Positions 8,410 through 62,209 are shown, counted from the stretch's first letter. The stretch is 64,000 bases of DNA from Bacteroidota bacterium (GCA_017303895.1 JAFLBF010000006.1:78618-142617), one strand, 5' to 3'. The notes: generated by a model not told the origin, from the sequence alone. Numbers and translations: made by a program.

Positions 8410-8449
8410 GTAACCCTGAAGCCTTTATTAAACGTTTTTGCAGGGTTAC
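8410..8449 (-). terminator. Stem-loop (9-bp stem, 22-nt loop) followed by a U-tract on the minus strand, between the porin and PhoU-like genes. Putative terminator or attenuator.
   Basis: GTAACCCTG ... CAGGGTTAC. On the minus strand it is followed by TTTTGTTACC. Confidence 0.35.
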
Positions 8450-8485
8450 TCTTGTATTAATTTAATGTTAAGGGAATGTTAAGAG

Positions 8486-9730: not shown

Positions 9731-9830
9731 TATAGTTAACTGTAGGTTAAATAAATATTATACAGCGGCAAAAGTATTTTAACAATTAATTTACAGTGTT
9801 ATGGCAATGTTAAGTAATGGTAAATTTTAG

Positions 9831-9862
9831 GTAATAAAAAAGGCGGAGCAATTGCTCCGCCT
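9831..9862 (-). terminator. Rho-independent terminator downstream of the T9SS cargo gene
   Basis: AGGCGGAGC aatt GCTCCGCCT hairpin. A TTTTTTATTAC run follows on the minus strand. Confidence 0.65.
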
Positions 9863-9886
9863 TGTAAACTCTTATTGATGATATTT

Positions 9887-11539: not shown

Positions 11540-11659
11540 TTTTTTAGTATTTAAATTTATTTGATACAAAATTAGATGTGTGTTATTGTGCTAAGATTAT
11601 GGTCGGGTTATGCGTTTTTTATATGTATATTAATAGAACATTATGTTGTTAACTTAAAA

Positions 11660-11690
11660 TAAAAAGAGCCGCATTTGCGGCTCTTTTTAT
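11660..11690 (-). terminator. Rho-independent terminator immediately downstream of the TonB-dependent receptor gene
   Basis: AAAGAGCCGCATTTGCGGCTCTTT hairpin with T-runs on both strands. Confidence 0.7.
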
Positions 11691-11693
11691 TTA

Positions 11694-14602: not shown

Positions 14603-14685
14603 TGTTAATCAAAAATTAAACTAGTGTTAATTAAAATGGATTGTTGAGAAGGTTTGTTAATGTTATGTTAATTGCAAATTAACAT
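14603..14685. promoter_or_regulatory. Four TGTTAAT direct repeats at roughly 11/22/30-bp phasing plus a 21-bp perfect palindrome (ATGTTAATTGCAAATTAACAT). They lie in the divergent TBDR/response-regulator intergenic region and are a candidate Pho-box-like operator.
   Basis: TGTTAAT begins at 14603, 14625, 14655 and 14666. The palindrome spans 14665-14685. TGTTA(A/T) pairs at 11-bp spacing also occur at 8466/8477 and 9797/9808. Confidence 0.4.
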
Positions 14686-42182: not shown

Positions 42183-42184
42183 AG

Positions 42185-43426
42185 ATGAAAAAAAATATTT
42201 TTTTTTATTTGTTTATTGTATTTAAAACCTGTTTTTCACAAAACTGGCAAGTGTATTCAGTTGCCAACTCTCCCAATCCATATGATTCTTATAGTCATCT
42301 CACGATAGATACAAATAATGTCAAATGGTTTGTAAAAATTCAAGGGATTGGTGATAAAACAGTAGCTTATTCTGGAGTTTCGAATTGGGTGTCATATAAT
42401 AATGTTTACAATAGTACTCTTTTTAATTGTCGCCAGACAAATGCTGATTTGAGAAGTTTGTTATGGTTAATCTCACTTGACAATAAAATATATAGTTTAA
42501 AAGCTGGTGTTTGGTATAAATACGACCCTGTAACCACTGGAATTGCAAATCTACATGGGTTTTATGATGTTGCAATTGATAGTAAAAATAATAAATGGTT
42601 TTGTGGGGTGAATGGTTTAGCGAAGTATAATGATACGTTGTTTACATTACTTGATACAGTCAATTCCAATCTTCCCTTTCAGCCTATCTATAAAGTAATA
42701 ACTGATATAAATGATGATGTTTTGATAATTGGAGCCGGTGGTCTAGCAAAATTATCTAACAATATTTGGGAAGTGCATCCCGTTCCTTTTTCTGTAGCAA
42801 GTAATATTGTTTCCGACTACAGAATGGTTGTTGACTCAACAAATAATTTATGGGTGGCAAGAGGGAATTCTGGAGGAGGATTACTCATGTTTGATGGAGT
42901 CTCTTGGACTAATTTTATTAAAACAAATTCGGATATTGCAAGTGATTCAATTTACGGAGTAGATGTTGATCAACAAAACAAAATTTGGTGTTCTTTTTTA
43001 GGAAAAGGTATAATAAAATTTGATGGGACAACATGGACGACTTACGGTGTTTTAAATGGTTATCCCGTTTCTACTGGTTCAATAGAGATTTCTGTTGATG
43101 GTTTTGGTAATAAGTGGTTTATTACAGGTAATGGTGTTGTGGAATTTAATGAGAATGGTATTGTTGGCAGGGATGATCTTTTTATGAATGAAAATAACAT
43201 TTTGATTTTTCCCAACCCTAACAATGGAAAATTTGAATTGAGATCAAACATAAATGATCGGTTGCAAAGCCTTGAAATATATAATATTTTAGGAGATAGA
43301 ATTAGTGTAGTGAATGATATTTCTCCGCTAATGGTATTTGATATCAGCAATTGCCCATCAGGAATATACATTGTCAAAGTATATACTCATGAAGGTGTTG
43401 TTTGTAAAAAAATTATCAAGGAGTAA
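42185..43426 (+). CDS. T9SS-sorted beta-propeller protein (two-component-regulator-propeller / Y_Y_Y-like repeats), function unknown
   Basis: 413 aa with a signal peptide and repeated NxxW(F/V) blades (NKWFCGVNGLAKY; NLWVARGNSGGGLLMFDGVSWTNF; NKIWCSFLGKGIIKFDGTTWTTY). C-terminal CTD (IFPNPNNGKFELR…GIYIVKVY). It starts 2 nt after the S8 peptidase stop. Confidence 0.6.
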   Translation: MKKNIFFYLFIVFKTCFSQNWQVYSVANSPNPYDSYSHLTIDTNNVKWFVKIQGIGDKTVAYSGVSNWVSYNNVYNSTLFNCRQTNADLRSLLWLISLDNKIYSLKAGVWYKYDPVTTGIANLHGFYDVAIDSKNNKWFCGVNGLAKYNDTLFTLLDTVNSNLPFQPIYKVITDINDDVLIIGAGGLAKLSNNIWEVHPVPFSVASNIVSDYRMVVDSTNNLWVARGNSGGGLLMFDGVSWTNFIKTNSDIASDSIYGVDVDQQNKIWCSFLGKGIIKFDGTTWTTYGVLNGYPVSTGSIEISVDGFGNKWFITGNGVVEFNENGIVGRDDLFMNENNILIFPNPNNGKFELRSNINDRLQSLEIYNILGDRISVVNDISPLMVFDISNCPSGIYIVKVYTHEGVVCKKIIKE

Positions 43427-49805: not shown

Positions 49806-51371
49806 TTAATTCTTTATTACACTCCCGTTTGACGTTTTTCCATTTGAGGTAACATGAATAATGTAGGTGCCTTTCTTTTCAGCACTTATATTTATTTCAG
49901 TAGTTGCTGAATTTGGTCGTTCTGTCCGGAGCAGTTTCCCCTGTATATCATAAATTTTTATTTCTTCTATTCTGGAGTTGCTTTTTGATTCAACTTTGAA
50001 GACACCATTTGTTGGATTTGGAAAAAGAAGAATTTCATTTTTTGAACTTTCAACAAGCGACATCTGAGTTACTGTTGCTGTAGGAGCATGCATTCTAACA
50101 TACCACACATCCAATGAGCCATCGCGTGTATTCGCCCATGTTGCGCTCAATGTATCGTTTGCAATTGCTACCGACATAAAATCATTACCGTCTTGTGCTA
50201 ATATATTATGATAGGCAACCAGTGAATCGGAGATCATGAAATTAGGAGCAAAGCTTGCGGAATCCTTATCGCGATAGGCAGCATAAAATTCAGATGCCGT
50301 TATAAATCCACTTCCACTTGCATTTCTACGGTCTCTCCAGGAAACAATGATGTCACCATCATTATCAAAATCTGCCCACAGCATATCTTGCATTTTTCCA
50401 TTGGCTGTCGGGTCATCATTGATCCTTACAGGTGAAGTCCACGTGCTTCCATCATTATAACTTTCGATCATCATAATGTCAATATCACCAAAAATATTTT
50501 GTGGAAAGAAAAGAACTAAGTGATTGCTGTTTGTTGGATCCGCTATTAATTGGTATGCTAATTTTGCACTATCATTATTGGCAAATGAATTACTTGCATA
50601 CACATTTTTATAAGACATACTTGTTCCATTATTTGTGCTGGACGCCAATATAAATTGAGGTAAGATATTTTGAGATGGAACATAGCTTGGATACACGGTG
50701 TGAAATTTATTATTGGAAGCAACAGTAGGGGTTGAGAATGGCGCTGCGATCAATGATCCCACTAAATATCCTGTACTATCAACGTATCTCCAGGGCTGCC
50801 AGGTAGTTCCTCCATTTGTTGAACATACAAAATAGGGGCGATTCGGAGCGGGGACCCATGGAGCCGGTTTGGTTGTAATATAAATTTTAGAACCATCGCT
50901 CGATACAGAAATGAAAGGTCTGTCAACAGGCAATTTTGTTCCATCAGCGTGCGCATCGATCGCTTTAACAGGAGTACTCCAATTTAATCCTCCATTGATA
51001 GATTTTGTAACATACACACCTCCGGAGTCAGGGCTTTCGCGGTGATCGATATAACTTAGGAATAAGTTTCCATTACTATCGAATGCCATAGATGGGTCAG
51101 CCGATTTATAACTGCTTTGTATGTGAGGCATATTTACCGCACTGCTCCAGGTTTGTCCACCATTAAATGAGCTTTTTACTTTAATGGTTAAACCCGTTCC
51201 ACTGCCAAAAACATAACCCTGCCAGGCAATTACTATATTTTGAGAGTTTGTAGGATTAATAGCAATGAAGGGTTCTCCGTCAAAAACATTCCCGTTTGAT
51301 ATGTTTACATTCTGTGCATGTAAAGTAAAACTCAAGAATATCGAAATTGTAAATAGATAGATGTATTTCAT
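49806..51371 (-). CDS. BNR (sialidase-like) repeat protein with a T9SS C-terminal sorting domain, starting at MKYIYLF
   Basis: At least five S-x-(D/N)-x-G-x-(T/S)-W BNR motifs (SSFNGGQTWS, SINGGLNWS, STNGGTTWQ, STNNGTSMS, SYNDGSTWT) and a CTD (LFPNPTNGVFKVE…GTYIIHVTSNGK). Confidence 0.7.
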   Translation of the reverse strand: MKYIYLFTISIFLSFTLHAQNVNISNGNVFDGEPFIAINPTNSQNIVIAWQGYVFGSGTGLTIKVKSSFNGGQTWSSAVNMPHIQSSYKSADPSMAFDSNGNLFLSYIDHRESPDSGGVYVTKSINGGLNWSTPVKAIDAHADGTKLPVDRPFISVSSDGSKIYITTKPAPWVPAPNRPYFVCSTNGGTTWQPWRYVDSTGYLVGSLIAAPFSTPTVASNNKFHTVYPSYVPSQNILPQFILASSTNNGTSMSYKNVYASNSFANNDSAKLAYQLIADPTNSNHLVLFFPQNIFGDIDIMMIESYNDGSTWTSPVRINDDPTANGKMQDMLWADFDNDGDIIVSWRDRRNASGSGFITASEFYAAYRDKDSASFAPNFMISDSLVAYHNILAQDGNDFMSVAIANDTLSATWANTRDGSLDVWYVRMHAPTATVTQMSLVESSKNEILLFPNPTNGVFKVESKSNSRIEEIKIYDIQGKLLRTERPNSATTEINISAEKKGTYIIHVTSNGKTSNGSVIKN

Positions 51372-51427
51372 AGTAGTTTTTTGTATTATAAAATTAATCT
51401 TTTTTTTGATAGTTATAAAAAACAAAA

Positions 51428-51450
51428 AAGTCCCGCATGTTGCAGGACTT
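51428..51450 (-). terminator. Rho-independent terminator downstream of the endonuclease-I gene
   Basis: AAGTCCCGCA tgt TGCAGGACTT with T/A runs on both sides. Confidence 0.65.
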
Positions 51451-51473
51451 TTTTGTTCTAAATAAACCTAAAA

Positions 51474-53726
51474 TTAATCAATTATCAACTTCTCTGATTT
51501 TCTACCACTGTCTGTAACTATCTCAATGCTGTAAAGGCCTTTGCTTAAACCTTCTAAGTTCATCTCAATAGTATTGTTCCCATTGGAAACAGTTGTTTGC
51601 TTACGAGCAACCACTCTTCCAAAAATATCATATACGTTTACATTCAAATTTTGATTGTTGGATGAATTAAACAATATTTTAAAGTTTCCTGTTGTTGGAT
51701 TTGGTGCGATCAAAAACTTGTCATTGCTTTTTTGATTATCAAAAATCCCAACGGTATTACAAGGAACGTTTGGTGTAGCAATTTTTGTCATCGTGCTGAA
51801 ATCAATATAGCAAACATAGTTTGCACTATCGATAAATGGATTTCTGTTTCCTTGTAATGAATCAACATAATCGTTACGTGCAATTTCCCAATTATCAGGA
51901 GGGTCTTGATAATGCCAAATCTTTAATACATTTTGATCTTGTGCGTAATTAATGGTACTGTTTATTGTTAGTGGCAATGACCAGCTTCCTCCGTATGTTG
52001 CATTTGTATTCGGTGCACCTGCATAAGTAACTCCGGTATAGCAAATTGTTTGGTACAACATACAACGTGCAGCATCACCTTTGTCAGAGTCTCTAGGTTC
52101 AAAAACCGTTTTTCCATTTGCATCCGGTCCAAGCTTACATCCTAAATAAGTGTAGGTTGGAGTGCCAACTACTTCTCCTAATGGATAGTTACTTCTAATC
52201 CCATTTACGTTATTTTGGTTGGCTTGAACGATCATGTGATAGTCGCTATACTCAGGTCGGCTTGTGAAATTAGCATCATTCACTGTTGGCATCCAGCTTT
52301 GACAAAAGGTATGTTCGCGTGCAAAATCGTTTGTTGTCCAGTCAAAAGGCTCCGAATATACTTTGTTCAATCCGCTATACGAGCAGGTGATCACTCGTTG
52401 ATCATTCACTGTATCACGTGCTAAAAATTTAGCAACCATGTACGGACCATAGTTACTATAGAATTGTGTGGTATGTGGATTGATCTTGTTGTGCAGGTCA
52501 GTTACAAATGAAGAAGATGAAGTTGAGACTGTATTGTAGTAATTGCTTGGCTGCATAGAACCGGAGCTCGTTACATTGCCTGTTAATGGAGCTGTTGTTA
52601 AATAATTTCTGAACGTACTTGTTCCATTGTATGCAAATACTGCAAAATGATATGTTGTGTTAGCAACAATATTATTAGGGAAAAATCCGGTCACATTACC
52701 AACTGCTACTACTTGCGATGATCCGATCAAATCCCCTCTTTTGTAAACTGTTCCATCAATAGGAACATCTGTTACTGCAGAACCTGTTTTACGAAGAATG
52801 ATATAACCATCAGGACTGCCCGATGCCGCAGTATATGAACCGGTGATATGATATGATTTTACGTTCGAAAAGGTAAGATTTGTAGCTTGAGCTGTTGGCT
52901 CTGTTGCTAGTGTTCCACCAATTCCATCTAAGTTGATGATGTATGGATTTGCATTGACATCATCATTCGCAATGGTTAAAATAGCATCACGTGTTCCTGA
53001 CGAAGAAGGTGTAAAATTAACAACCAATGAAGTATTACTTTGACCACTAACAGTAAATGGGGTAGCTGTAGCGACTGAATAATCAGCAGCTGCAGGTCCG
53101 CTGATTGAAGCGGAAGACACATTCAATATTGCCAATCCTAAATTATATACCGTGAATGTTACCGGTGTTAAAGTGCTAACAGGTGATGAAAAAGAATATG
53201 TTCCTCCGTTAACGATTGTAGTAGTTCCTTGTTTAATACTTATTTCTTGCGCAGCAGATACACCTGCTGTGATAGAAACATTATCCAATCCAATGTTTCC
53301 TGAAACCTTATTTTGATAGTAAAAACGTACATATCGACTTGCACTGTTCAATGTTTCAGTGTAAGGTGCATAAGATGCTCCGGGAGCAGTGATTGTTCGT
53401 AATGTATTCCATGTTGAACCATTTGCAGATTCCTGGATCAAAAATGTACCACCTGAAAAGCTGTTTCCGGTAAGATCATAAGTTAAGTTTCCGGGAGTAG
53501 AGGCAACATTCACCATCAAAATATCTCCAGTTGCATCCAGTTTATAAGCAGGAGCAGGATTTCCGGAGCCTGTATAGTAAGGTTGACTGGTTGTATTTAC
53601 ATTTGTTTCCGACCATCCAGTTGGTAGGGTAGTGGTTGCAAAATTCCAGGAAGTTGGTAATACTGCCTGTGCAAATGCCGATGCAGTAATTGTTACTGCG
53701 ATCAATAAAGAGTAGATCTTTTTCAT
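51474..53726 (-). CDS. T9SS-sorted extracellular nuclease with an Endonuclease-I (EndA/Vvn-type) domain
   Basis: 750 aa. Signal peptide and N-terminal beta-rich domains. The nuclease region carries AREHTFCQSW, DYHMIV and the highly characteristic LQGNRNPFID ending motif. C-terminal CTD (IAPNPTTGNFKIL…GLYSIEIVTD). Confidence 0.7.
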   Translation of the reverse strand: MKKIYSLLIAVTITASAFAQAVLPTSWNFATTTLPTGWSETNVNTTSQPYYTGSGNPAPAYKLDATGDILMVNVASTPGNLTYDLTGNSFSGGTFLIQESANGSTWNTLRTITAPGASYAPYTETLNSASRYVRFYYQNKVSGNIGLDNVSITAGVSAAQEISIKQGTTTIVNGGTYSFSSPVSTLTPVTFTVYNLGLAILNVSSASISGPAAADYSVATATPFTVSGQSNTSLVVNFTPSSSGTRDAILTIANDDVNANPYIINLDGIGGTLATEPTAQATNLTFSNVKSYHITGSYTAASGSPDGYIILRKTGSAVTDVPIDGTVYKRGDLIGSSQVVAVGNVTGFFPNNIVANTTYHFAVFAYNGTSTFRNYLTTAPLTGNVTSSGSMQPSNYYNTVSTSSSSFVTDLHNKINPHTTQFYSNYGPYMVAKFLARDTVNDQRVITCSYSGLNKVYSEPFDWTTNDFAREHTFCQSWMPTVNDANFTSRPEYSDYHMIVQANQNNVNGIRSNYPLGEVVGTPTYTYLGCKLGPDANGKTVFEPRDSDKGDAARCMLYQTICYTGVTYAGAPNTNATYGGSWSLPLTINSTINYAQDQNVLKIWHYQDPPDNWEIARNDYVDSLQGNRNPFIDSANYVCYIDFSTMTKIATPNVPCNTVGIFDNQKSNDKFLIAPNPTTGNFKILFNSSNNQNLNVNVYDIFGRVVARKQTTVSNGNNTIEMNLEGLSKGLYSIEIVTDSGRKSEKLIID

Positions 53727-53745
53727 TTGTTGTTTTATTTAATTA

Positions 53746-56598
53746 TTAAAATCCTATTCGTAATGACACATTCATTCTTCTGCCCATGCCCATATACACC
53801 AATGCTGATGTAGCATTAAATTTTGTTCCATTCTGAGCATCGGATATATAAACAGTATCTAACAGATTGTTTACACCTGCAGTAACTGTAAATTTCATTT
53901 TCCAATATTTAAAATCATAACCTGCATATAGATCCAATAATCCATAATTCGGCATTTGCCATGATTCACGATCCTTATTGTTATTTACTAATGTTGTTGG
54001 ATCAAAATTGGCATAGTTCTTTGCAAAGTAAGTGTAACGTGGCTTTATATAAAGTCCTTTGATGATCTCGTAGCGGACACTTCCTGCGTATTGAATTTGC
54101 GCTGCATCACCTACATGAACATTCTTAGCGCTGAAATCTACCGTTGCTATTTTTGTTCCGTTTTCATCTGTTACATCAGCTGTAGTGCCCGATGTTGTTT
54201 TCCAGTCGCCAATAGATGCCAATCCTTCTACTTCCAAATTTTTCAAGATCTTGTAAATAAAATCGATCTCGATACCTTTGTGCAATGCATCCAATCCATT
54301 GATGTTATAATAGATCGTTCCATCAGGTCCGGGTACCGATGGTAAACTTGACGGTGGTTTGTTTTCCCATGATGTATAATATAAATTCAGATTCGCTGCA
54401 TATTTTTGATCATGTAGTCCATATCCTGCTTCGATGGCATATACTTTTTGATTTTTACTATCCAAAATTTCACGGTTGTTGTTATCAAAAACAACGTTCA
54501 TTCTTGGAGCCATACTTAAATGTCCGATATTCACGAACACATTATGATGATCATTAATGTTATAGTTAGCACCGCCTTTTAGCGTGTAACCTAAATACCA
54601 TTTTTGCTTGGTAGTTGCATGTCTAGCTTCGGAAGATTGATTTGTATAGGAAGTGGCATTCAAGATGTATTGCTGATTAACTCCGGTTCCAACAAAAGTA
54701 GTGTCGCCACTGTATGAAACATTGTTTGTTGTTGCAATTAAATAGCTTGTTCCGTTGTAGAAAAATTGATCTCCAGTACCCACTACTTGTTCAAATGTAT
54801 TGCCATCAATAACAAGGTCTTTCTTTTTATAATAATCAATTCTCTTATATCCTGTTTCTGAAATAGATGCTGTAAAGAATGTACTCCATTTATCCTTTTT
54901 ATATTCGATCTGTCCAAATGCTCCACCCCACATTACTTTGGCATCATTGTAATAACTTATTTTATCGCCAACTTTTCTCACTGCATTCTGAAAATTTGGA
55001 TCGCCCAAATAGGCACCATTGATCTGATTTTCATCTGAACTATTGTCTAATGCATAATCTGCACCCATTAGATCATAGATTGATTGATAGTGTGTGCCTT
55101 TATAATATCGTGCATCCACCCCAAATAGTGTTGAGACCTTGTCGTTTACTTTGTAATTCCAGGAAGAAAGAATTCCATACCATAGATGATCGTTGTTGCT
55201 GGCGCGTAAATAATTCGTAGCCGGACGCTCAGTCGGACTATAAAGAATAGAAGGATTAGCGTTTAGGTTAGCATCATAAACAGATTGAATGTTCAATTGC
55301 CCGGTTACTTTATCTCTTGCAACTGCATTCTTCAGACCGGTTCCGCCTCCTTTGCCAAGTGACAGGTATGCTATGGTTGATACAGATAATTTATCATTTG
55401 GTGTCCAGAAATGTGAAAGATTGAATTGTGGTTTGTGATAATAGTTTACACGATCATTAAACTGATCTTCATTGCCAATTGGAGGGATAGGATTGCCTCT
55501 GTAATTTACATCATAACTGGTTGTTCCCCAATTCGGATTGTATGCAGTTCCTCTTTCGATCTGATTCCAGGAATTTAATATAGAATCGGAGTTGATGCCT
55601 AGAGCATCTGACATTTTTTTGCTGTATATAGCCAGCGGTAAACGGTCTAATCGCTGTCCATGCTTTTGCGGTGCACCATTGGCACTGATACTGAATAAGT
55701 GTTTATTGAAACGTTTTTGAATCTTCACAAAGTATGACCATGCATCCGTGAATGTTGCATCGGCCCAATTGGTTCCCCATTTGCGTGAACCGGCAAGTGT
55801 TACTCCCCAACCGCCTTTCAATTGTCCTGAATTATAACCGAATGATGTTTTGTATAATCCGTAATTATTGATCTCTTGCTTAATGTTTGCTCCTGCTTTT
55901 TGATCGATCCCTTTCGTTAAGATATTGATCGTTCCCCCAACGGAAGCGATGGCAAGTTTGGACGCTCCCAAACCTCTTTGTACTTGCATTGTTCGAGTTA
56001 TATCACTCAATCCATCCCAATTACTCCAATACACTTGTCCATTTTCCATGTCATTCACAGGAACTCCATCTACCATTACAGCTACATTCCGTTGGTCAAA
56101 TCCTCGAATAGTAACCCGTGCATCACCGCTACCGCCACCTTGTTCTGTGGCGTAAGCACCTGGGGTGCTGTTCAATACCATCGGAAGATCACGTGTTCCA
56201 AGTTCTTCCTGGATCTGTTTTACGGTAATATTGGAAAATGCAATAGGCGTTTCACGGGTTTTCGCTACATCGGCTACTACTTCCACCTCTTCCAGCATTT
56301 TTGTTTTTAATGAAAAATTAACTGAGACAGGTTTGTTGCCTACTTTTACTTTTACTTTTACTTTCTGGGTTTCATAGCCAACAAAAGAAACGGTGACGGT
56401 ATATGTTCCGGAATCAGCTTTAATGGAATAATTACCATTTATATCTGTTACCACGCCCTTTCCTTCAGCGATCATAACAGTAGCACCAATTACTGTTTCA
56501 CCGGTAGCTTCGTCCTTAATGACTCCTTTGATCTCGCCATTTTGGGAAAATACAGCGGTAGAAAAAATAATAAGGAGTAGCGTAAAAAAATGTTTCAT
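53746..56598 (-). CDS. TonB-dependent receptor with an N-terminal CarbopepD_reg-like domain
   Basis: 950 aa. Signal peptide, IKGVIKDEATGETVIGATVMI, plug and 22-strand barrel regions, and a C-terminal …SLRIGF. Confidence 0.85.
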   Translation of the reverse strand: MKHFFTLLLIIFSTAVFSQNGEIKGVIKDEATGETVIGATVMIAEGKGVVTDINGNYSIKADSGTYTVTVSFVGYETQKVKVKVKVGNKPVSVNFSLKTKMLEEVEVVADVAKTRETPIAFSNITVKQIQEELGTRDLPMVLNSTPGAYATEQGGGSGDARVTIRGFDQRNVAVMVDGVPVNDMENGQVYWSNWDGLSDITRTMQVQRGLGASKLAIASVGGTINILTKGIDQKAGANIKQEINNYGLYKTSFGYNSGQLKGGWGVTLAGSRKWGTNWADATFTDAWSYFVKIQKRFNKHLFSISANGAPQKHGQRLDRLPLAIYSKKMSDALGINSDSILNSWNQIERGTAYNPNWGTTSYDVNYRGNPIPPIGNEDQFNDRVNYYHKPQFNLSHFWTPNDKLSVSTIAYLSLGKGGGTGLKNAVARDKVTGQLNIQSVYDANLNANPSILYSPTERPATNYLRASNNDHLWYGILSSWNYKVNDKVSTLFGVDARYYKGTHYQSIYDLMGADYALDNSSDENQINGAYLGDPNFQNAVRKVGDKISYYNDAKVMWGGAFGQIEYKKDKWSTFFTASISETGYKRIDYYKKKDLVIDGNTFEQVVGTGDQFFYNGTSYLIATTNNVSYSGDTTFVGTGVNQQYILNATSYTNQSSEARHATTKQKWYLGYTLKGGANYNINDHHNVFVNIGHLSMAPRMNVVFDNNNREILDSKNQKVYAIEAGYGLHDQKYAANLNLYYTSWENKPPSSLPSVPGPDGTIYYNINGLDALHKGIEIDFIYKILKNLEVEGLASIGDWKTTSGTTADVTDENGTKIATVDFSAKNVHVGDAAQIQYAGSVRYEIIKGLYIKPRYTYFAKNYANFDPTTLVNNNKDRESWQMPNYGLLDLYAGYDFKYWKMKFTVTAGVNNLLDTVYISDAQNGTKFNATSALVYMGMGRRMNVSLRIGF

Positions 56599-56609
56599 TG
56601 GAATTTAAA

Positions 56610-56641
56610 CAAAAAAAGATCGTCCCATTACAGGACGATCT
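56610..56641 (-). terminator. Rho-independent terminator between the lamin-tail-domain gene and the TBDR gene
   Basis: AGATCGTCC cattaca GGACGATCT. A TTTTTTTGTTT run follows on the minus strand. Confidence 0.7.
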
Positions 56642-56653
56642 TTGGGGTTTAGT

Positions 56654-57628
56654 TTATTGTACGGAGAGTTTTACAACAGTGCTTTTATTGTTTTCGAATG
56701 AAACCTTTACAAAATATACTCCACTAGTTAATTTTAGTGTTTCTAATCTTAATTTCTTGTCGTTGTTATTCCCTTTTTCAGAGATCACTTTTTGTCCCAT
56801 TACATTGTAAACTTCAACTGTCTCGATCACTTCTGTTGCAGTTACATTGAATGTTCCAGAGTTAGTAGGGTTAGGGAACACCTTCACTGATACTTGATTA
56901 TCAATATCATTTACCGAAGCTGTCGGGCAGTTGCAAGTATGTGATCCTAATCCGGAATAGGTATTTACTGGTAATGAATCCCATTCTGTAGTAACGATGA
57001 AATAAGGTGTAGGATTAGATGTAACGCCTGACATAACGGTTGGTTTACGAACTAATGTTTGATTGACAGTCCACCATGCACCTGCTGATCCATCGTATGG
57101 GAAAGCATCACTCCAAGCAGTTCCAGATACCATGGCAGGATCACCGATCATTCCAAAGATATCTACATATTGCCAAGAGGTTCCACCATTGCTGGTTTTT
57201 TGCAAAGAAACAGCATCGTTTCCGTTGAAATACATTGCGTAACTGATGTTGTAGTCAGGGCACAGGAATACATCTGCTTTTGCTTGAAGGGCAGAATCTA
57301 CTGCACATTCGTTGCCTGGACAAGGCTGGTTAGCATCACGTTTATCGATCACAATAACGTATGTTTGTCCTGATTGAATGGTTGGATTTCCTAAATTAAC
57401 CATTGCTTGTGCGTTAGCTTCACCGGCAGCGGCACCTGTTCCGTTATTGTAACGTACCAAACGGTAATTATTATTTAATGAAATAGCATTTGGAGTAGGG
57501 TTAAAAATCTCTAATGCTTTATTGTTACTTGTTCCTTCTACATACTCAGAAATGATCAAGTCAGTACACTGTGCATTTGCGATAATAGCAGACGCGAAAG
57601 CAAAAACTGAAAGTAATAGTTTTTTCAT
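56654..57628 (-). CDS. Lamin-tail-domain (LTD) protein with a T9SS C-terminal sorting domain
   Basis: 324 aa. Signal peptide and LTD signature (LIISEYVEGTSNNKALEIFNPT…YRLVRYNNG). CTD (VFPNPTNSGTFNV…GVYFVKVSFEN). Confidence 0.7.
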   Translation of the reverse strand: MKKLLLSVFAFASAIIANAQCTDLIISEYVEGTSNNKALEIFNPTPNAISLNNNYRLVRYNNGTGAAAGEANAQAMVNLGNPTIQSGQTYVIVIDKRDANQPCPGNECAVDSALQAKADVFLCPDYNISYAMYFNGNDAVSLQKTSNGGTSWQYVDIFGMIGDPAMVSGTAWSDAFPYDGSAGAWWTVNQTLVRKPTVMSGVTSNPTPYFIVTTEWDSLPVNTYSGLGSHTCNCPTASVNDIDNQVSVKVFPNPTNSGTFNVTATEVIETVEVYNVMGQKVISEKGNNNDKKLRLETLKLTSGVYFVKVSFENNKSTVVKLSVQ

Positions 57629-57829
57629 GTTTATTATTATTAAAATGGTTACAATTTGTTGTCGAAGTGGTTTCGGATTAACCTCCTTGTAGATAGGGAG
57701 GTCTCTTGTAGGATGATCACTTCTTTTAAAAGACGATACAAATGTACCACTTTTTTCCGTAAGTCAACAGGCAGTTATTAATAGTAATTAACAGATAATG
57801 AAATGGTAACGAAAAAATAATAGCGATGC

Positions 57830-60800
57830 TTAGAAGTATGCTCTAACCTGCGCGCCTCCTGTATGGATGGTTTTGCTCTTTTCAGAAGAACGTCCATCAT
57901 AGGTCAAACTCAGCTGTAAATTATTTGATAAATTACGTTGATAGGAGAGTCCCCAGGTAATATTCTGACCCACTTTAAGTGCATCCAACATCTCAAAAGC
58001 AAGTGAAGTGTTTTGTAGGCCATTAAACTGTATCTGAATATAATCCACCTTCGCATTCAAACTGCCTTTGTTCAAAACATTATATTTGATCTCAGCACCA
58101 TAATCCTGTAGGGTGGCTCTTTGTGCACCCAGTTCGGCTTTGTTCTGTTTATCTGTATATCTAAACGAAACACTTGCCCTGAAAGAGGTGTTGGGCTGGT
58201 AATTGATCTTAGGCTCTAACTCGTAAAAAGTGATCTCATAATCTCTGGAACTGAAAAATTGTGAACTGCTGGCTTTAATACCCGACTTACCGGATGCATT
58301 CAGGCTAAATTTTTGAGAAATATTCCATCGTAAGCGACCTTCATAATATTGGTTTTTTCGTGCCTCAAATCCATTTACGAGTAAAGATTTGTTCCTAACA
58401 TCCTGAAAAGTGATATCCAAACCAAATACGGGACTAAGTTGATTGATGAACAGGGTGTTTCTGAATAATGAATTGAGCGTCATTAATGTGCTATCATTTG
58501 TTTCAGCTAAAAAAGGATTATATGCTTTGCTGATATCATCCTCATTTGATTTTCTGTCGATTCGATAGGAAGTTTGATTGGAAAATCTTGAAATGAATTT
58601 TTTAAATCCTTTTTTATTGGCCCATATCACTCCCGGTTTGATGGTAAGCGTCTGGCTGAATTGATTCGTGTACGTCTTTACATATTCATTCGTGGGAGTA
58701 TACACTTTTATGTATGTTGCCTGATCGGGGAAGGCTGATATTTCAAACTCATTTAATTCTTTTATTCCGTTCTCATTATAGTCGATCCAGGTATAAATAC
58801 CTTGTCCGGGTGCTACCTCCAGGTAGGAAAATTCCTTTTTGATCTCTAAACCCGATCCAATTTCATAAAATGTATTTGAATAAATAACTCCCTTTAAAAG
58901 TCGAACATTGTATTCAATTCTTCCAACCAATGAATTATCCTGCTTTTGAGAAGTGATCGTAGAATCAATGATCTGCAGTCGTCTGTATGCTGCATTGATC
59001 TTTAATTGATTGTTTGGGTTTTTGATCAATTCAAAAAAGCCGCCATAGCTTTCTGCAAAAGCTGCACGCGAAAGCGTAGAGTTGGTAGCTGAATTTTTTA
59101 CGGCATGATCGGTGCGCTGTTTGTAGTTGATGCCATATCTGTTTTGGGTGGTATCGCTGTTTTGTGCAAACGCTTGCCATTCCCAGAATTGATAGCTGTT
59201 AACGAGTAATGAATCTTTTTTTGTTAGTGAGAATAAGTTTTGTTCAAATTCATCTTTTGCTCCGATTGTGATCCATTTTATTTTTTGTGAAACAAAACTT
59301 TTATGTCTGTAAAAAGTGGTGTTTTGATTGCTTGCAGAACTTAATAAGCTTCCATCATAGCGGATATTTAACCCTTTGTTCGAGTAGTTAAGGTTGGCCA
59401 TGTGTTTGTTGGCGCTGTAATTCGTTTCTTCTAAAAAGGCATTGAATTTATAACCAATGGCTCCCATTCCTTTTTGAACCAAACCAATTCCTGCTCCGAT
59501 AATATGCTGGTCTTTATTCGCAGCAGCGAGTGTTACCCTGTTCCAATCCCTTTCAAATTCAATGCTTCTAAAACGTTCTATTGGAGAAAAATATTTTTGT
59601 ACAAACTCGTAATTTACATTACTAACCAAATTCAGTTCATGTGATGTAGAATCAGCTGATTTTGTTTTTTGCAAAAGTAATGCATTGTCAAAATTTACTT
59701 TCAAACCATACCCAATATCATCGTTACTATTGTAGGAAGAGAAGGTGTTGATGTCATTATTCGTAAGAGCAGCTTCAATATTTAGTTTACTTTTTTTAGA
59801 AAAATCATAATCGATCCCGGCAGTTACCATTTGTTTTTTCTTAGGTGTGATCAGCTGTACAACAGGTTCGAAATTTCCTTGTGGTGTATTGGTGATGGTG
59901 TCGGGCATTACCCACTTAAATACTTTTCCGTTGGCACTTGAATTTATTTGAATATAATTTCCCCTGTTACTGCCAACATTACTAAACGTTACCCTGTAAC
60001 GAGCACTGTCGGCATTGGTGTTGTAAAAGAACACATTTTGAAATGTACGTGTGCCGATCGTGGTGTCAGTTTTAAAATATAACACTTCGCTATTTGTAAA
60101 TGCAACACTGTCAAAGCTTGGTGTTACTGCAAGCGATAAGGTGTCTCCGATATTTCCAAGTAAGGCTTTTTGCTCAGGAGTTAGATCCTGTTGCAAAGGT
60201 TGGTTTTTACTATCCTGTTCGGAATAAATATGTAGATGTAATTTTAATTTTCCTTGTTCATAGTCATTTCCAAAATGTACGAGTGAACGAGCATAGTTTT
60301 TGTCGGAGTATTGAAACTCCACTACGATCCTTTTGTCTTTGGTGATGAGTTGTTTTGCTGTAAATGTGATCTCAGCAGTGTTGTAATTTATGATGTAATC
60401 ATTTTCTTGTCCTCTATCCAATAGACGACCATCGATATACACTTTTTCTGTTCCGGATAAAACGATAATAAACAATTCATTTTCTGCTCCTCTTAAGCGG
60501 TATGGGCCTTGGTTGCTTTCAATTCCCTGTATTTGATTTCGTGCAAATTTACCTCTCGAAACTGCTGCACTTAAGCTCGTTGAATAAGTTCCCTGCTTTT
60601 CTTTTTTATTTTCATTGGTAGTGAGTGTTGTTGAGAAATTTAATCCCTGTGCTTTTTTATAGAAATTCATAAAATAGCTTTTAGGGCGGGTCATTTGGAA
60701 GTCGCCAGCAATCAATTTTGTTTTGTTTTTGGATAATTGGATAAATACTTTATCAAATTCCTGAAGTTGTTGGGTATTCCCATCGGGTTGAATAGGGATG

Positions 60801-61399
60801 TTGTTATCTGTTGCTGCCAATAAGATCTCAATATCGTTGTTTAGTTTTCCGGATAATTGTAAGTTCAAATTCGAATTAACAACCATATCCTGATTGCTAC
60901 CGATGGTAATTCCCCTTGAAATACTTCCGGTTTTATTTAAACCATCCATTTTAAAGATATCATCATTTTTATTGTCGATCGTATATGCGAAAGGGTTTAT
61001 AAATCCTTTGTTGTCGGGACGTATATTCTTAATGTCTTTGTGTTTTGTTTCCTGTGTAAATAAATGCGGGAATGTTTTGTATTCTGTATTGATCGAATCC
61101 AACACAAGGTTCTCCTTCGCTATTTTTTTTCTATTCAGTATGAGTTTTCCGTTAGCATAGTCAATATGAAACAAGCTGGTGTCGATCATTGTCCCATCGC
61201 TTTTTTTAATAGTTATACTACCTGGAATTAGGCTTAATGTATCCAATTGGATGGTGTCGGAATTGATCTTGATCGTTTTGGAATGCACATTCCCGTTTGC
61301 CTGTGAAAAACACAGGCCACTCAAGGAAAGGAAAAGAAATAACAATATAGATCTATGTGCAGTCACAAAATTAAAAGTACTAAATATGTTCAATAACAA
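57830..61399 (-). CDS. Large (1189 aa) outer-membrane beta-barrel-type protein of unknown function
   Basis: Signal peptide, alternating amphipathic beta-strand character throughout, and a C-terminal …GGAQVRAYF (aromatic terminal residue typical of OMPs). No recognisable catalytic motifs. Confidence 0.5.
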   Translation of the reverse strand: MLLNIFSTFNFVTAHRSILLFLFLSLSGLCFSQANGNVHSKTIKINSDTIQLDTLSLIPGSITIKKSDGTMIDTSLFHIDYANGKLILNRKKIAKENLVLDSINTEYKTFPHLFTQETKHKDIKNIRPDNKGFINPFAYTIDNKNDDIFKMDGLNKTGSISRGITIGSNQDMVVNSNLNLQLSGKLNNDIEILLAATDNNIPIQPDGNTQQLQEFDKVFIQLSKNKTKLIAGDFQMTRPKSYFMNFYKKAQGLNFSTTLTTNENKKEKQGTYSTSLSAAVSRGKFARNQIQGIESNQGPYRLRGAENELFIIVLSGTEKVYIDGRLLDRGQENDYIINYNTAEITFTAKQLITKDKRIVVEFQYSDKNYARSLVHFGNDYEQGKLKLHLHIYSEQDSKNQPLQQDLTPEQKALLGNIGDTLSLAVTPSFDSVAFTNSEVLYFKTDTTIGTRTFQNVFFYNTNADSARYRVTFSNVGSNRGNYIQINSSANGKVFKWVMPDTITNTPQGNFEPVVQLITPKKKQMVTAGIDYDFSKKSKLNIEAALTNNDINTFSSYNSNDDIGYGLKVNFDNALLLQKTKSADSTSHELNLVSNVNYEFVQKYFSPIERFRSIEFERDWNRVTLAAANKDQHIIGAGIGLVQKGMGAIGYKFNAFLEETNYSANKHMANLNYSNKGLNIRYDGSLLSSASNQNTTFYRHKSFVSQKIKWITIGAKDEFEQNLFSLTKKDSLLVNSYQFWEWQAFAQNSDTTQNRYGINYKQRTDHAVKNSATNSTLSRAAFAESYGGFFELIKNPNNQLKINAAYRRLQIIDSTITSQKQDNSLVGRIEYNVRLLKGVIYSNTFYEIGSGLEIKKEFSYLEVAPGQGIYTWIDYNENGIKELNEFEISAFPDQATYIKVYTPTNEYVKTYTNQFSQTLTIKPGVIWANKKGFKKFISRFSNQTSYRIDRKSNEDDISKAYNPFLAETNDSTLMTLNSLFRNTLFINQLSPVFGLDITFQDVRNKSLLVNGFEARKNQYYEGRLRWNISQKFSLNASGKSGIKASSSQFFSSRDYEITFYELEPKINYQPNTSFRASVSFRYTDKQNKAELGAQRATLQDYGAEIKYNVLNKGSLNAKVDYIQIQFNGLQNTSLAFEMLDALKVGQNITWGLSYQRNLSNNLQLSLTYDGRSSEKSKTIHTGGAQVRAYF

Positions 61400-61441
61400 A
61401 GCATTTTATACATTTGTTATCCTATCATAATACGTTTAAAA

Positions 61442-62209
61442 ATGACAAAAATTATAACTTATAATGTAAATGGCATCCGTTCGGCCATGAGTAAAGGATT
61501 TATGGATTGGATGAAGGCTGCAAATCCGGATATTGTTTGTTTGCAGGAAATAAAAGCAGAACCCGGGCAGATCGATGTGAGTATCTTTGAAAATGCGGGC
61601 TACCATCATTATTGGTATCCGGCTCAAAAAAAAGGATATAGTGGCGTAGCTATATTTACAAAGAAAAAACCCGATTATATTGAGTATGGCTGTGGGATAA
61701 AGGAATACGACCTGGAGGGCAGGGTGTTGAGGGCTGACTATGGCGATGTTTCGGTTATGAGTGTTTATCATCCCAGCGGTAGCAGTGGAGAAGATCGCCA
61801 GGCATTTAAAATGAAGTGGTTGGCTGATTTTCAGAAATATATTGATCAGCTGAAGAAAGAACGTCCAAAATTGATCATTTGCGGAGATTACAACATTTGC
61901 CATCAGCCGATCGATATTCATAATCCGAAAAGTAATGCCAATAGTAGTGGTTTTTTGCCCGAAGAGAGGGAGTGGATCGATAATTTCATGAAATCGGGAT
62001 TTGTTGATAGCTTCCGACATTTTAACAAAGAGCCTCATAATTACAGTTGGTGGAGCTTCAGAGCCAATGCCAGAGCTAAAAACCTGGGTTGGCGGATCGA
62101 TTATAACCTGGTCAGTAAAAACCTGGAGTCAAAAATGAAAAGAGCGGCAATTTTACCGGAGGCAAAGCATTCCGATCATTGTCCGGTGCTTTTGGAAATT
62201 GATTTTTAA
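61442..62209 (+). CDS. xth: Exodeoxyribonuclease III (AP endonuclease, EEP family)
   Basis: 255 aa. NVNGIRS, CLQE, and the catalytic Asp/His near the C-terminus (SDHCPV). Classic Xth layout. Confidence 0.9.
   Translation: MTKIITYNVNGIRSAMSKGFMDWMKAANPDIVCLQEIKAEPGQIDVSIFENAGYHHYWYPAQKKGYSGVAIFTKKKPDYIEYGCGIKEYDLEGRVLRADYGDVSVMSVYHPSGSSGEDRQAFKMKWLADFQKYIDQLKKERPKLIICGDYNICHQPIDIHNPKSNANSSGFLPEEREWIDNFMKSGFVDSFRHFNKEPHNYSWWSFRANARAKNLGWRIDYNLVSKNLESKMKRAAILPEAKHSDHCPVLLEIDF

What the first reader, a model, noticed from the sequence alone, without database searches (positions are those of the whole stretch)
49806..62209. Putative extracellular-DNA scavenging locus: T9SS endonuclease I, T9SS lamin-tail-domain protein, T9SS BNR protein, TonB-dependent receptor and giant OMP, divergent from exonuclease III
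Five co-oriented minus-strand genes encode a secreted Endonuclease-I-domain protein (with the LQGNRNPFID signature), a lamin-tail-domain protein (ISEYVEG…NKALEIFNPT), a BNR-repeat protein, a CarbopepD_reg TonB-dependent receptor and a 1189-aa beta-barrel protein. LTD domains in bacteria are associated with extracellular nucleases and phosphoesterases. A TBDR next to a nuclease is the classic scheme of digesting outside and importing the fragments. Taken together this looks like a T9SS-dependent system for harvesting extracellular nucleic acid as a nutrient or phosphate source. I do not believe such a system has been defined.
Basis: inference. Interest (0 to 1): 0.7.

Follow-up and report, generated by a model that had tools for sequence, protein, structure and literature searches.

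The report
T9SS-linked extracellular nucleic-acid uptake operon
Three of the six flagged genes (a secreted lamin-tail-domain protein, an outer-membrane TonB-dependent transporter and a secreted endonuclease) form an operon conserved across Bacteroidota that most likely digests extracellular DNA/RNA and imports the pieces. It is an environmental, type-IX-secretion variant of the DNA-utilization loci described in gut Bacteroides in 2025, and the other three genes are just neighbours.

Summary
Comparative evidence cuts the proposed six-gene system down to three genes on the minus strand: LTD/T9SS protein (56654-57628), non-SusC TonB-dependent transporter (53746-56598) and modular T9SS Endonuclease I (51474-53726).

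Around TBDR homologues in 80 genomes from different species:
- The LTD gene sits directly upstream in 72 of 73 informative loci.
- A T9SS-secreted nuclease sits next to the TBDR in 54 of 55. It is either Endonuclease I (33) or an unrelated Nuc/NucT-type PLD nuclease (21).
- A split periplasmic 5'-nucleotidase follows in 15 of 48.

The BNR protein, the 1189-aa protein and exonuclease III never co-occur outside near-identical strains.

The scavenging idea is therefore well supported for the core, by inference only. The claim that no such system has been defined is out of date: ddbABCDEF loci (PNAS 2025) and the Riemerella transformation genes (2021) use the same nuclease-plus-TBDT scheme.

New here are the LTD partner, T9SS export, swapping of the nuclease module and the phylum-wide spread.

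Also found:
- A conserved promoter-proximal repeat box.
- A terminator-like hairpin after the LTD gene.
- A covarying 5'-leader RNA, absent from Rfam, that precedes diverse T9SS cargo genes.

The parts
57784..57813 (-). Promoter-proximal operator: three direct repeats at 11-bp phasing (TTCGTTAC cat TTCATTAT ctg TTAATTAC) containing the core TGTTAAT
   Evidence: One search gave an exact match plus an overlapping 1-mismatch match. The box is conserved upstream of LTD genes in two clades. Its function is inferred.
57739..57746 (-). Bacteroidetes-type -7 promoter box TACATTTG (consensus TAnnTTTG), with a TTG at 57765-57767 as the likely -33 element
   Evidence: Sequence read. The box is conserved at this position in all 9 related loci aligned with the window and in all 15. 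The consensus itself is from established knowledge of Bacteroidetes sigma-A promoters.
57662..57725 (-). Structured 5'-leader RNA: P1 (GAAGUG/CACUUC), internal loop AUCAUCCUACA, P2 hairpin, UAA bulge, UCC-GAAAC, P1'
   Evidence: Covariance model R2 scores 59.6 bits, E 5.5e-13, and this is the only hit in the window. P1 covaries. There is no Rfam family. The same motif precedes other T9SS cargo genes.
56654..57628 (-). Gene 1: lamin-tail-domain protein, 324 aa. It has an SPI signal peptide (mature N-terminus QC...), an acidic LTD core and a T9SS type A C-terminal domain.
   Evidence: It lies directly upstream of the TBDR in 72/73 informative loci.
56615..56643 (-). Terminator-like hairpin with a 12-13 bp stem followed by TTTTTGTTT, about 17 nt before the TBDR start codon. 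Probably a partial terminator or attenuator that makes LTD mRNA more abundant than the downstream genes.
   Evidence: Equivalent hairpins occur in 32/65 LTD-TBDR spacers, against 5/325 shuffles and 4/51 TBDR-nuclease spacers.
53746..56598 (-). Gene 2: TonB-dependent transporter, 950 aa, non-SusC. It has a CarboxypepD_reg N-terminal domain, a TonB-box-like EEVEVVA, a plug and a divergent barrel.
   Evidence: More than 7500 homologues.
51474..53726 (-). Gene 3: modular T9SS-secreted nuclease, 750 aa. N-terminal beta-sandwich, choice-of-anchor-D/ASH-like Ig domain, fn3, Endonuclease I and T9SS CTD.
   Evidence: The catalytic E-H, D.H, VN..R.N and QGNRNP motifs align with E. coli EndA and Vvn. A nuclease lies next to the TBDR in 54/55 informative loci.
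49806..51425 (-). NOT a conserved part: T9SS cargo with a weak BNR/beta-propeller signal, 48 nt downstream of the nuclease. It may be co-transcribed here as a lineage-specific passenger.
   Evidence: BNR_2 below cutoff. Searches show it absent from related loci. One search shows it present only in relatives at about 96% identity.
57830..61399 (-). NOT part: 1178/1189-aa uncharacterised, probably outer-membrane, protein. It belongs to a very large unannotated Bacteroidota family and is a separate transcription unit.
   Evidence: It is never within 10 kb of TBDR homologues in the 80 genome loci.
61442..62209 (+). NOT part: cytoplasmic exodeoxyribonuclease III (Xth), a DNA-repair enzyme without a signal peptide
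   Evidence: TIGR00633, 310.6 bits. Absent from related loci.

Best explanation
The real feature is a three-gene, PUL-like operon for using extracellular nucleic acid. It is built from type IX secretion cargo and a non-SusC TonB-dependent transporter.

Transcription starts at a Bacteroidetes-type promoter, with an upstream repeat box and a structured leader. It runs through the LTD gene. A terminator-like hairpin then probably lets only part of the transcripts continue into the transporter and nuclease genes.

Proposed mechanism:
1. The T9SS exports the LTD protein and the Endonuclease I protein to the cell surface or medium.
2. The non-specific His-Me nuclease cuts extracellular DNA/RNA into oligonucleotides.
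3. The TonB-dependent transporter imports these. The abundant LTD protein probably serves as its surface accessory, either capturing substrate or acting as a lid.
4. Periplasmic 5'-nucleotidases release phosphate and nucleosides. These are encoded inside the operon in other lineages, and presumably elsewhere in this genome.

Shown here: gene content, domain identity, intact catalytic motifs, synteny, module swapping, and the RNA and DNA elements.

Inferred: the substrate, the role of LTD, partial termination, and the physiological purpose (phosphorus, nitrogen or nucleobase supply).
For: - Synteny across species: LTD is upstream of the TBDR in 72/73 informative loci. A T9SS nuclease is adjacent in 54/55.
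- Non-orthologous replacement in the nuclease slot: 33 loci carry Endonuclease_1 and 21 carry tandem PLDc_2 domains. The closest solved relatives of the latter are the nucleases NucT, Zucchini/MitoPLD and Nuc. Nucleic acid is the substrate class the two families share.
- In 33 of the 55 loci the nuclease carries DUF5689. This is the domain of DdbD, for which Sharan et al. predicted a DNA-binding fold and a complex with the TBDT.
- In 15 of 48 loci the operon continues with a split 5'-nucleotidase: a lipoprotein 5_nucleotid_C subunit and a Tat-exported Metallophos subunit.
- The EndoI catalytic motifs are invariant and align with E. coli EndA and Vvn.
- The LTD region matches the N-terminus of the Shewanella extracellular nuclease ExeM (E 1.2e-18).
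[quoted passage not shown] LTD-Endonuclease_1 proteins are induced by phosphate depletion in F. johnsoniae.
Against: - There is no experimental datum for this family.
- The LTD core is very acidic (pI about 4.2, net charge about -14), which argues against simple electrostatic DNA binding. Its role is a guess.
- The window's own nuclease has no detectable DUF5689, and no nucleotidase is adjacent in the window.
- Homology of this TBDR to DdbC or RA0C_RS04915 could not be tested.
- B. thetaiotaomicron used DNA poorly as a sole C, N or P source, so 'nutrient' may be too simple.
- The leader RNA is shared with unrelated T9SS cargo genes, so it says nothing about nucleic-acid sensing.
Confidence: 0.7

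Rival explanations
1. DNA uptake for natural transformation. The TBDR with its surface partners imports long double-stranded DNA across the outer membrane for ComEC-dependent transformation, as proposed for Riemerella anatipestifer RA0C_RS04915/RS04920.
For: - A CarboxypepD_reg-type outer-membrane barrel and a DUF5689 protein are essential for transformation in R. anatipestifer.
- Sharan et al. relate that pair to DdbCD.
- Many loci related to the window fuse DUF5689 to the gene after the TBDR.
Against: - The invariant partner is a non-specific endonuclease.
- In 15/48 loci a periplasmic 5'-nucleotidase follows. These degrade DNA to nucleosides rather than preserve it.
- No competence genes were seen in the window ORFs annotated or recurrently beside the operon.
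- The window's own proteins lack DUF5689.
Confidence: 0.12
2. Phosphate-starvation scavenging of phosphodiesters in general (phospholipid head groups, teichoic-acid-like polymers, cyclic nucleotides). Nucleic acid would be only one substrate, and the system would be a Pho-regulon member.
For: - F. johnsoniae LTD-Endonuclease_1 proteins and several orphan TBDTs are induced only under phosphate depletion.
- PLD-superfamily domains can be phospholipases.
- The TGTTAAT core of the operator is clustered five times in 82 bp upstream of a phosphate cluster elsewhere in the window. That cluster encodes a TBDR, a T9SS protein, porin O/P, a PhoU-like protein and a PHO4 transporter.
Against: - The PLD domains are closest to the nuclease clade, not to phospholipases.
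- Endonuclease I acts on nucleic acids.
- TGTTAA-type boxes also occur at promoters of unrelated T9SS cargo genes, so they need not be Pho boxes.
- No Pho box is defined for Bacteroidota in the papers searched.
Confidence: 0.1
3. The secreted nuclease serves a non-nutritional role (remodelling of the eDNA biofilm matrix, escape from DNA traps, competition). The TBDR imports something unrelated such as an iron complex, as some automatic annotations say.
For: - Several homologues are labelled 'iron complex outermembrane receptor protein'.
- The ddbF homologue BT3563 was first linked to bile-dependent biofilm formation.
Against: - The labels are generic.
- The TBDR-nuclease adjacency survives down to 38-40% TBDR identity and across two nuclease folds, and it recruits 5'-nucleotidases. 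This is hard to explain without a shared substrate.
- No siderophore or haem genes recur in the neighbourhoods.
Confidence: 0.06

Closest known systems
ddbABCDEF DNA-utilization loci of Bacteroides thetaiotaomicron and gut Bacteroidales (Sharan et al., PNAS 2025, PMC12478041)
   Same: - Both are PUL-like clusters in Bacteroidota that combine secreted nucleases with a non-SusC TonB-dependent transporter and a surface accessory protein encoded next to it.
- In many relatives of the window locus, DUF5689 sits in the gene directly after the TBDT.
   Different: - Ddb proteins are lipoproteins or SPI proteins. Here both extracellular components are T9SS type A cargo.
- The universal partner is an LTD protein upstream of the TBDT, and the Ddb paper does not mention LTD.
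- DUF5689 is fused to the nuclease or, as in the window, absent.
- There is one nuclease rather than three.
- The carriers are environmental: Flavobacteriales, Saprospiraceae, Chitinophagales and non-gut Bacteroidales.
- TBDR-DdbC homology is untested.
Riemerella anatipestifer natural-transformation genes RA0C_RS04915 and RA0C_RS04920 (PMC8459023)
   Same: A CarboxypepD_reg-type outer-membrane barrel is followed by a surface protein with DUF5689, next to a nuclease gene, and it acts on extracellular DNA.
   Different: - The function shown there is transformation, not degradation.
- No LTD or T9SS signal is reported.
- Only pfam13620 was detected in RS04915, whereas the window TBDR has a clear Plug domain.
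- Homology is untested.
SusC/SusD polysaccharide utilization loci
   Same: The logic is the same: a surface enzyme cuts a polymer, a TonB-dependent transporter imports oligomers and periplasmic enzymes finish the job. Accessory surface proteins are encoded alongside.
   Different: - The TBDR is not SusC/RagA family and there is no SusD.
- The substrate is nucleic acid.
- Surface components are delivered by the T9SS rather than as lipoproteins.
Shewanella extracellular nucleases ExeM, ExeS and EndA, and eDNA as a phosphorus source
   Same: - An LTD-containing extracellular nuclease system is used to exploit eDNA.
- The window LTD matches the ExeM N-terminal region.
   Different: - In ExeM the LTD is fused to an EEP nuclease.
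- No dedicated TBDT operon is known there.
- Secretion is not by the T9SS.
Flavobacterium johnsoniae EndA1/EndA2 (Fjoh_4721 and Fjoh_4723; Lidbury et al. 2020, PMC8115612)
   Same: These are large Bacteroidota outer-membrane or extracellular proteins with fn3 + LTD + Endonuclease_1. They are induced by phosphate depletion.
   Different: - There LTD and nuclease are fused in one protein, and the genes were classed as 'orphan' with no transporter link.
- Here LTD is a separate gene and the operon includes a TBDT.
Periplasmic Endonuclease I (E. coli EndA, Vibrio vulnificus Vvn)
   Same: The catalytic domain and motifs are the same.
   Different: The window protein is three times longer, with four extra domains and a T9SS export signal. 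Its domain carries insertions relative to Vvn.

Membership tests
Endonuclease I (PF04231; EndA/Vvn) | Domain match above the curated threshold | tested here: met
   97.7 bits against a cutoff of 25, covering model positions 7-234 of 235.
Endonuclease I (PF04231; EndA/Vvn) | His-Me finger catalytic residues (E-H dyad, Mg-binding Asn in VNG.R.N, C-terminal QGN.NP) | tested here: met
   R75-E76-H77, D100, N113, R116 and Q230-N232-N234-P235 are invariant in 13 homologues and align with E. coli EndA and Vvn. Equating these with the Vvn residue numbers rests on my recollection of the Vvn literature.
Endonuclease I (PF04231; EndA/Vvn) | Nuclease activity on DNA/RNA | not testable with these tools
   Needs an enzyme assay.
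TonB-dependent transporter | Plug domain and N-terminal extension | tested here: met
   Plug 55.3 bits (cutoff 23.9) and CarbopepD_reg_2 67.2 bits. A profile of the family matches the plug regions of solved TBDTs.
TonB-dependent transporter | 22-strand C-terminal barrel | tested here: inconclusive
   There is no TonB_dep_Rec Pfam hit. Only the last ~60 residues match the YncD/PqqU barrels, at E about 7e-7. No structure was predicted for it.
SusC/RagA-type TBDT with SusD partner (PUL) | SusC/RagA signature and an adjacent SusD gene | tested here: not met
   No SusC/RagA model among the NCBIfam hits. The neighbours are LTD and EndoI, not SusD.
T9SS type A cargo | C-terminal sorting domain (PF18962/TIGR04183) plus an N-terminal signal peptide | tested here: met
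   By Pfam, LTD scores 48.4, EndoI 60.9 and BNR 53.3 bits (cutoff 27). TIGR04183 agrees. The AlphaFold model of the LTD protein's C-terminal domain superposes on T9SS substrate CTDs 8GL6_D and 8GL8_D. Actual secretion was not tested.
Ddb-type DNA-utilization locus | TBDT homologous to DdbC (WP_008762511.1) or RA0C_RS04915 | not testable with these tools
Ddb-type DNA-utilization locus | DUF5689 protein encoded next to the TBDT | tested here: not met
   There is no DUF5689 hit in any window protein. It is met, as a fusion to the nuclease, in 33 of 55 related loci.
Ddb-type DNA-utilization locus | Secreted nuclease(s) in the same cluster | tested here: met
Lamin tail domain (PF00932) | Domain match above threshold | tested here: met
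   45.7 bits against a cutoff of 34.3. The model is a beta-sandwich with medium confidence (pLDDT 75).
BNR/sialidase-like beta-propeller | BNR_2 match above threshold | tested here: not met
   27.0 bits against a cutoff of 31.4. No PDB relative apart from the CTD.
Known RNA families (riboswitches, leaders) for the 5'-leader | Match to an Rfam 15 covariance model | tested here: not met
   No hit at the gathering threshold in the window. At E<=10 on 57560-57860 there are only two weak hits to unrelated families, far below gathering and not over the element itself.

The most novel reading that the evidence does not exclude
The LTD protein is a T9SS-delivered cell-surface partner (substrate catcher or lid) of a non-SusC TonB-dependent transporter. 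That would be a further way of equipping Bacteroidota transporters, beside SusD and the lipoprotein lids. It would make this a phylum-wide, T9SS-dependent oligonucleotide import machine distinct from Ddb. Its mRNA would begin with an undescribed structured RNA class that marks a subset of T9SS cargo genes and couples their expression to some signal or protein.
Probability: 0.3. Interest if true: 0.8.

Novelty: new variant of a known kind. Interest (0 to 1): 0.55.

Why it matters
Extracellular DNA and RNA are major pools of organic phosphorus and nitrogen in soils, sediments and waters, and Bacteroidota are prominent degraders of them.

A conserved, easily recognised three-gene marker (LTD, TBDT, T9SS nuclease) would allow several things:
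- Predicting eDNA-consuming Bacteroidota from metagenomes.
- Extending the 2025 gut 'DNA-utilization locus' concept to environmental lineages and to type IX secretion.
- Providing a test case for how a T9SS cargo protein cooperates with a TonB-dependent transporter.

The nuclease-module swapping is a clean natural experiment pointing to the substrate.

Separately, the leader RNA shared by unrelated T9SS cargo genes could open the question of post-transcriptional control of T9SS substrates.

Tried and rejected
- Six-gene system. Rejected: tblastn of all six proteins against 80 loci found BNR, the 1189-aa protein and Xth in none. A relative at 77% identity has different flanks.
- Leader RNA as a nucleic-acid or nucleotide riboswitch specific to this operon. 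Rejected: the same motif precedes unrelated T9SS cargo genes (17 of 21 complete downstream ORFs, only about 7 of them LTD homologues).
- Operator as a Pho box. Not established: TGTTAA-type boxes also occur at promoters of other T9SS cargo genes, and no Bacteroidota Pho box was found in the papers searched.
- Fold search of the LTD model. It gave only generic Ig-like and T9SS-CTD matches.
- AlphaFold of the 1189-aa protein. Too poor to search (pLDDT 52.3). A PDB profile search found nothing.
- RNAalifold on the mixed two-clade leader alignment. It failed because of a 1-nt register shift, so the clades were analysed separately. Model R1, built from clade 2, did not detect clade 1.
- First two hairpin-counting criteria. 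One was too lax (37% of shuffles passed) and one too strict or buggy. The version is the one used.
- Retrieving DdbC or RS04915 sequences. Not possible.
- Literature searches for an LTD-TBDR-nuclease operon or a T9SS leader RNA. They found nothing.

Full report
**1. What is in the window**

Six ORFs lie at the stated coordinates. On the minus strand, in the direction of transcription, they are:
- an 1189-aa protein (57830-61399; NCBI calls it 1178 aa and 'hypothetical')
- a 324-aa LTD protein (56654-57628)
- a 950-aa TonB-dependent receptor (53746-56598)
- a 750-aa Endonuclease I protein (51474-53726)
- a 539-aa protein (49806-51425)

Exonuclease III lies on the plus strand (61442-62209).

Pfam and NCBIfam confirm:
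- Endonuclease_1 at 97.7 bits
- LTD at 45.7 bits
- CarbopepD_reg_2 at 67.2 bits and Plug at 55.3 bits
- T9SS type A C-terminal domains on the LTD, EndoI and 539-aa proteins
- Xth at 310.6 bits

BNR_2 scores 27.0 bits, below its 31.4 cutoff. The 1189-aa 'beta-barrel' has no Pfam, NCBIfam or PDB relative, and its model is poor (pLDDT 52.3). That model is nonetheless rich in long beta-hairpins, and the protein ends in ...RAYF.

The window comes from a Bacteroidota MAG. NCBI names the core proteins 'T9SS type A sorting domain-containing protein', 'TonB-dependent receptor' and 'endonuclease'.

**2. Which genes belong together**

The TBDR has more than 7500 homologues. The best 80 loci were fetched with 10-kb flanks.

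tblastn with the T9SS C-terminal domains removed, ORF clustering and domain probes gave these results:
- An LTD gene lies directly upstream on the same strand in 72 of 73 loci with more than 1 kb of upstream DNA. One search counts 70. L016 and L061 have it slightly further away. Only L077 lacks it.
- A T9SS nuclease gene lies next to the TBDR in 54 of 55 loci with more than 2.3 kb downstream.
- The BNR-like protein, the 1189-aa protein and Xth occur in none of the 80 loci.

They accompany the trio only in strains whose TBDR is about 96% identical. At 77% identity the flanks are entirely different.

Homologues of the 1189-aa protein share contigs with TBDR homologues in some genomes, but not within 10 kb. 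The unit is therefore LTD-TBDR-nuclease.

**3. Evidence for the substrate**

The nuclease slot is filled by two unrelated catalytic folds:
- Thirty-three loci carry Endonuclease_1.
- Twenty-one loci carry tandem PLDc_2 domains in a T9SS protein of 710-1020 aa. Their closest solved relatives are NucT, Zucchini/MitoPLD and Salmonella Nuc, the nuclease branch of the PLD superfamily.

Thirty-three of these nucleases also carry DUF5689.

In 15 of 48 loci the operon continues with a split 5'-nucleotidase. One part is a 235-aa 5_nucleotid_C lipoprotein with a lipobox. The other is a 300-aa Metallophos protein with a twin-arginine signal. Other recurrent neighbours are housekeeping genes.

In the window's nuclease the E-H dyad, the Mg-binding Asn motif and QGNRNP are invariant across homologues. 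They align with E. coli EndA and Vvn.

Taken together this is strong comparative support for the sequence: extracellular cleavage of nucleic acid, TonB-dependent import, then periplasmic dephosphorylation. No step has been shown experimentally for this family.

**4. The LTD protein**

It has an SPI signal peptide followed by an invariant Q-C, two further invariant cysteines (HTCxC), and a type A C-terminal domain. The AlphaFold model has medium confidence (pLDDT 75.2). It is a beta-sandwich plus the C-terminal domain, and fold search returns only generic Ig-like folds and T9SS C-terminal domains. Its N-terminal region resembles that of the Shewanella nuclease ExeM (E 1.2e-18).

The family core is strongly acidic (median pI 4.2, net charge about -14). 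Direct electrostatic DNA binding is therefore unlikely. A role as accessory to the transporter, or cation-mediated binding, is a guess.

**5. The transporter**

It is not SusC-like. Only its N-terminal extension, plug and last ~60 residues match solved TBDTs. With the other TBDR in the window it shares only the N-terminal 240 residues, at 29% identity. A TonB-box-like EEVEVVA precedes the plug, and E104/V105 are invariant.

**6. Regulatory anatomy (new)**

- *Promoter and operator.* Upstream of the LTD gene is a Bacteroidetes -7 box, TACATTTG (57746-57739). Further upstream lie three 11-bp-phased repeats (57813-57784) with the core TGTTAAT. An equivalent box, aTGTTAACAATTa, is conserved in a second clade.
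- *Hairpin after LTD.* Immediately after the LTD stop codon is a 12-13-bp hairpin followed by a T-run (56643-56615), 17 nt before the TBDR start. Comparable hairpins (dG <= -9 kcal/mol plus a T-run) occur in 32 of 65 LTD-TBDR spacers. The rates are 5 of 325 in shuffles and 4 of 51 in TBDR-nuclease spacers. This suggests partial termination and an excess of LTD.
- *Leader RNA.* The 5' leader (57725-57662) folds into P1, an 11-nt loop (AACAyCCUACA), a P2 hairpin, a UAA bulge, UCC-GAAAC and P1'.
  - P1 covaries. Nine of 11 pairs in one clade and 4 of 6 in the other show compensatory changes.
  - On a 34-sequence alignment 96.6% of P1 cells pair, with up to three pair types per position. The metagenome sequences were selected for P1 pairing, which inflates that percentage.
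  - No Rfam family matches.

**7. The leader is not specific to this operon**

A pattern scan of metagenome contigs returned 120 stretches. Thirty-eight have P1 pairing at 5 or more of 6 positions.

| ORF set | Encode T9SS cargo |
|---|---|
| Complete ORFs starting within 200 nt downstream of a true motif | 17 of 21 (14 type A, 3 type B CHU_C) |
| Other ORFs in the same loci | 12 of 138 |
| ORFs in loci where the match looks random | 2 of 325 |

Pfam confirmed 9 of 10 tested. Only about seven of the 17 are LTD homologues.

The motif also occurs in tandem before other cargo genes. In the window it occurs once, and not before the other T9SS genes there.

It is therefore an undescribed leader associated with a subset of T9SS cargo genes, not a nucleic-acid riboswitch. 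Its function is unknown.

**8. Comparison with what is known**

- Sharan et al. (PNAS 2025) defined ddbABCDEF. It comprises three nucleases, the TonB-dependent transporter DdbC and the DUF5689 protein DdbD, which is predicted to bind DNA and to cap DdbC. [quoted passage not shown]
- They related it to RA0C_RS04915/RS04920, which are essential for natural transformation in Riemerella.
- Lidbury et al. 2020 found fn3+LTD+Endonuclease_1 proteins induced by phosphate depletion in F. johnsoniae and classed them as orphans.
- Wasmund et al. 2021 implicated Bacteroidota in degrading sediment DNA.

None of these papers mentions a separate LTD gene, T9SS export or this operon. The scheme is therefore known. 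This T9SS/LTD architecture, its module swapping and its breadth appear to be a new variant.

Whether the TBDR is a DdbC homologue could not be tested, because no sequences were reachable.

**9. Rival explanations**

- Transformation-type DNA uptake is the main rival. A non-specific nuclease and in-operon 5'-nucleotidases argue for degradation.
- A Pho-regulated general phosphodiester scavenger is compatible with much of the data. It is hinted at by five TGTTAAT copies in 82 bp upstream of a phosphate cluster elsewhere in the window. Similar boxes at promoters of other T9SS cargo genes weaken that link.
- A nuclease with a non-nutritional role beside an unrelated transporter is hard to reconcile with the synteny.

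**10. Verdict**

- The real feature is a three-gene operon plus its regulatory elements.
- Novelty: a new variant of a known kind.
- Confidence in the nucleic-acid uptake mechanism is about 0.7. It rests entirely on comparative inference.

Noticed in passing
window 57662-57725 (minus strand); also L001:6433-6548, L002:6444-6562, L006:5080-5214 and about 38 metagenome loci among L086-L205: A covarying structured 5'-leader RNA (P1, AACAyCCUACA loop, P2, UCC-GAAAC, P1') that is absent from Rfam 15. It lies in front of many unrelated T9SS cargo genes (17 of 21 complete downstream ORFs, type A and type B CTDs), often as tandem copies. It looks like an undescribed cis-regulatory RNA class linked to T9SS substrates.
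   Followed up: yes
window 56615-56643 (minus strand): Terminator-like hairpin plus T-run between the LTD stop codon and the TBDR start codon. The same kind of hairpin, with different sequences, occurs in 32/65 related loci against 5/325 shuffles. It suggests attenuation that makes the LTD transcript more abundant than the rest of the operon.
   Followed up: yes
window 57784-57813 (minus strand); window 14603-14684: Three 11-bp-phased repeats with core TGTTAAT lie upstream of the LTD promoter. Five TGTTAAT copies within 82 bp, including the palindrome TGTTAATTTGCAATTAACA, lie upstream of a second TBDR operon. TTAACA-ATT-TGTTAA boxes also occur at other promoters that carry the leader RNA. This is possibly the operator of one regulator, which is unidentified.
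   Followed up: partly
window 6034-14549 (minus strand): A phosphate-acquisition cluster: TBDR (11694-14549), a 560-aa T9SS-CTD protein with no other domain (9887-11569), phosphate-selective porin O/P (8486-9730), a PhoU_div/DUF47 protein (7732-8376) and a PHO4-family phosphate transporter (6034-7689).
   Followed up: partly
window 57830-61399 (minus strand): The 1178/1189-aa protein belongs to a very large Bacteroidota family (more than 7400 homologues, the listed top 120 at >=63% identity). The family is 'hypothetical' wherever a source names it, has no Pfam, NCBIfam or PDB match, and gave a poor AlphaFold model. It is beta-rich with a C-terminal ...RAYF, so it is probably an outer-membrane protein of unknown function.
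   Followed up: partly
L012, L017, L019, L020, L025, L031, L036, L037, L050, L059 (gene after the TBDR); L061:12169-14373: The T9SS nuclease is a domain-shuffled module. Forms seen are DUF5689-fn3-2xPLDc_2-CTD, DUF5689-...-Endonuclease_1-CTD, Endonuclease_1-DUF5689-CTD, and the window type without DUF5689. In L014 and L018 the PLD gene lies upstream of LTD instead of downstream of the TBDR.
   Followed up: yes
L010, L011, L013, L035, L046, L049, L051, L058, L060, L063-L065, L067, L069, L072, L078 (downstream of the nuclease): A 5'-nucleotidase split into two genes: a lipoprotein with only the 5_nucleotid_C domain (about 235 aa) followed by a Tat-signal Metallophos protein (about 300 aa). They sit in the same operon as the nuclease.
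   Followed up: partly
L001:6574-8646 and L002:6587-8659: A second, larger LTD+fn3 T9SS protein (690 aa) lies just upstream of the LTD-TBDR-EndoI trio. It is preceded by two tandem copies of the leader RNA.
   Followed up: partly
window 38445-43426 (plus strand): Two more T9SS cargo genes: a 1245-aa S8 subtilase with SBBP repeats and a 413-aa protein with only a CTD. Neither carries the leader RNA motif, so the leader marks only a subset of cargo genes.
   Followed up: partly
window 56654-57628 and homologues (alignment A2): The LTD family has an invariant Gln-Cys at the predicted mature N-terminus, an invariant H-T-C-x-C before the CTD linker, and a very acidic core (pI about 4.2). These are odd features for a supposed DNA-binding domain.
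   Followed up: partly
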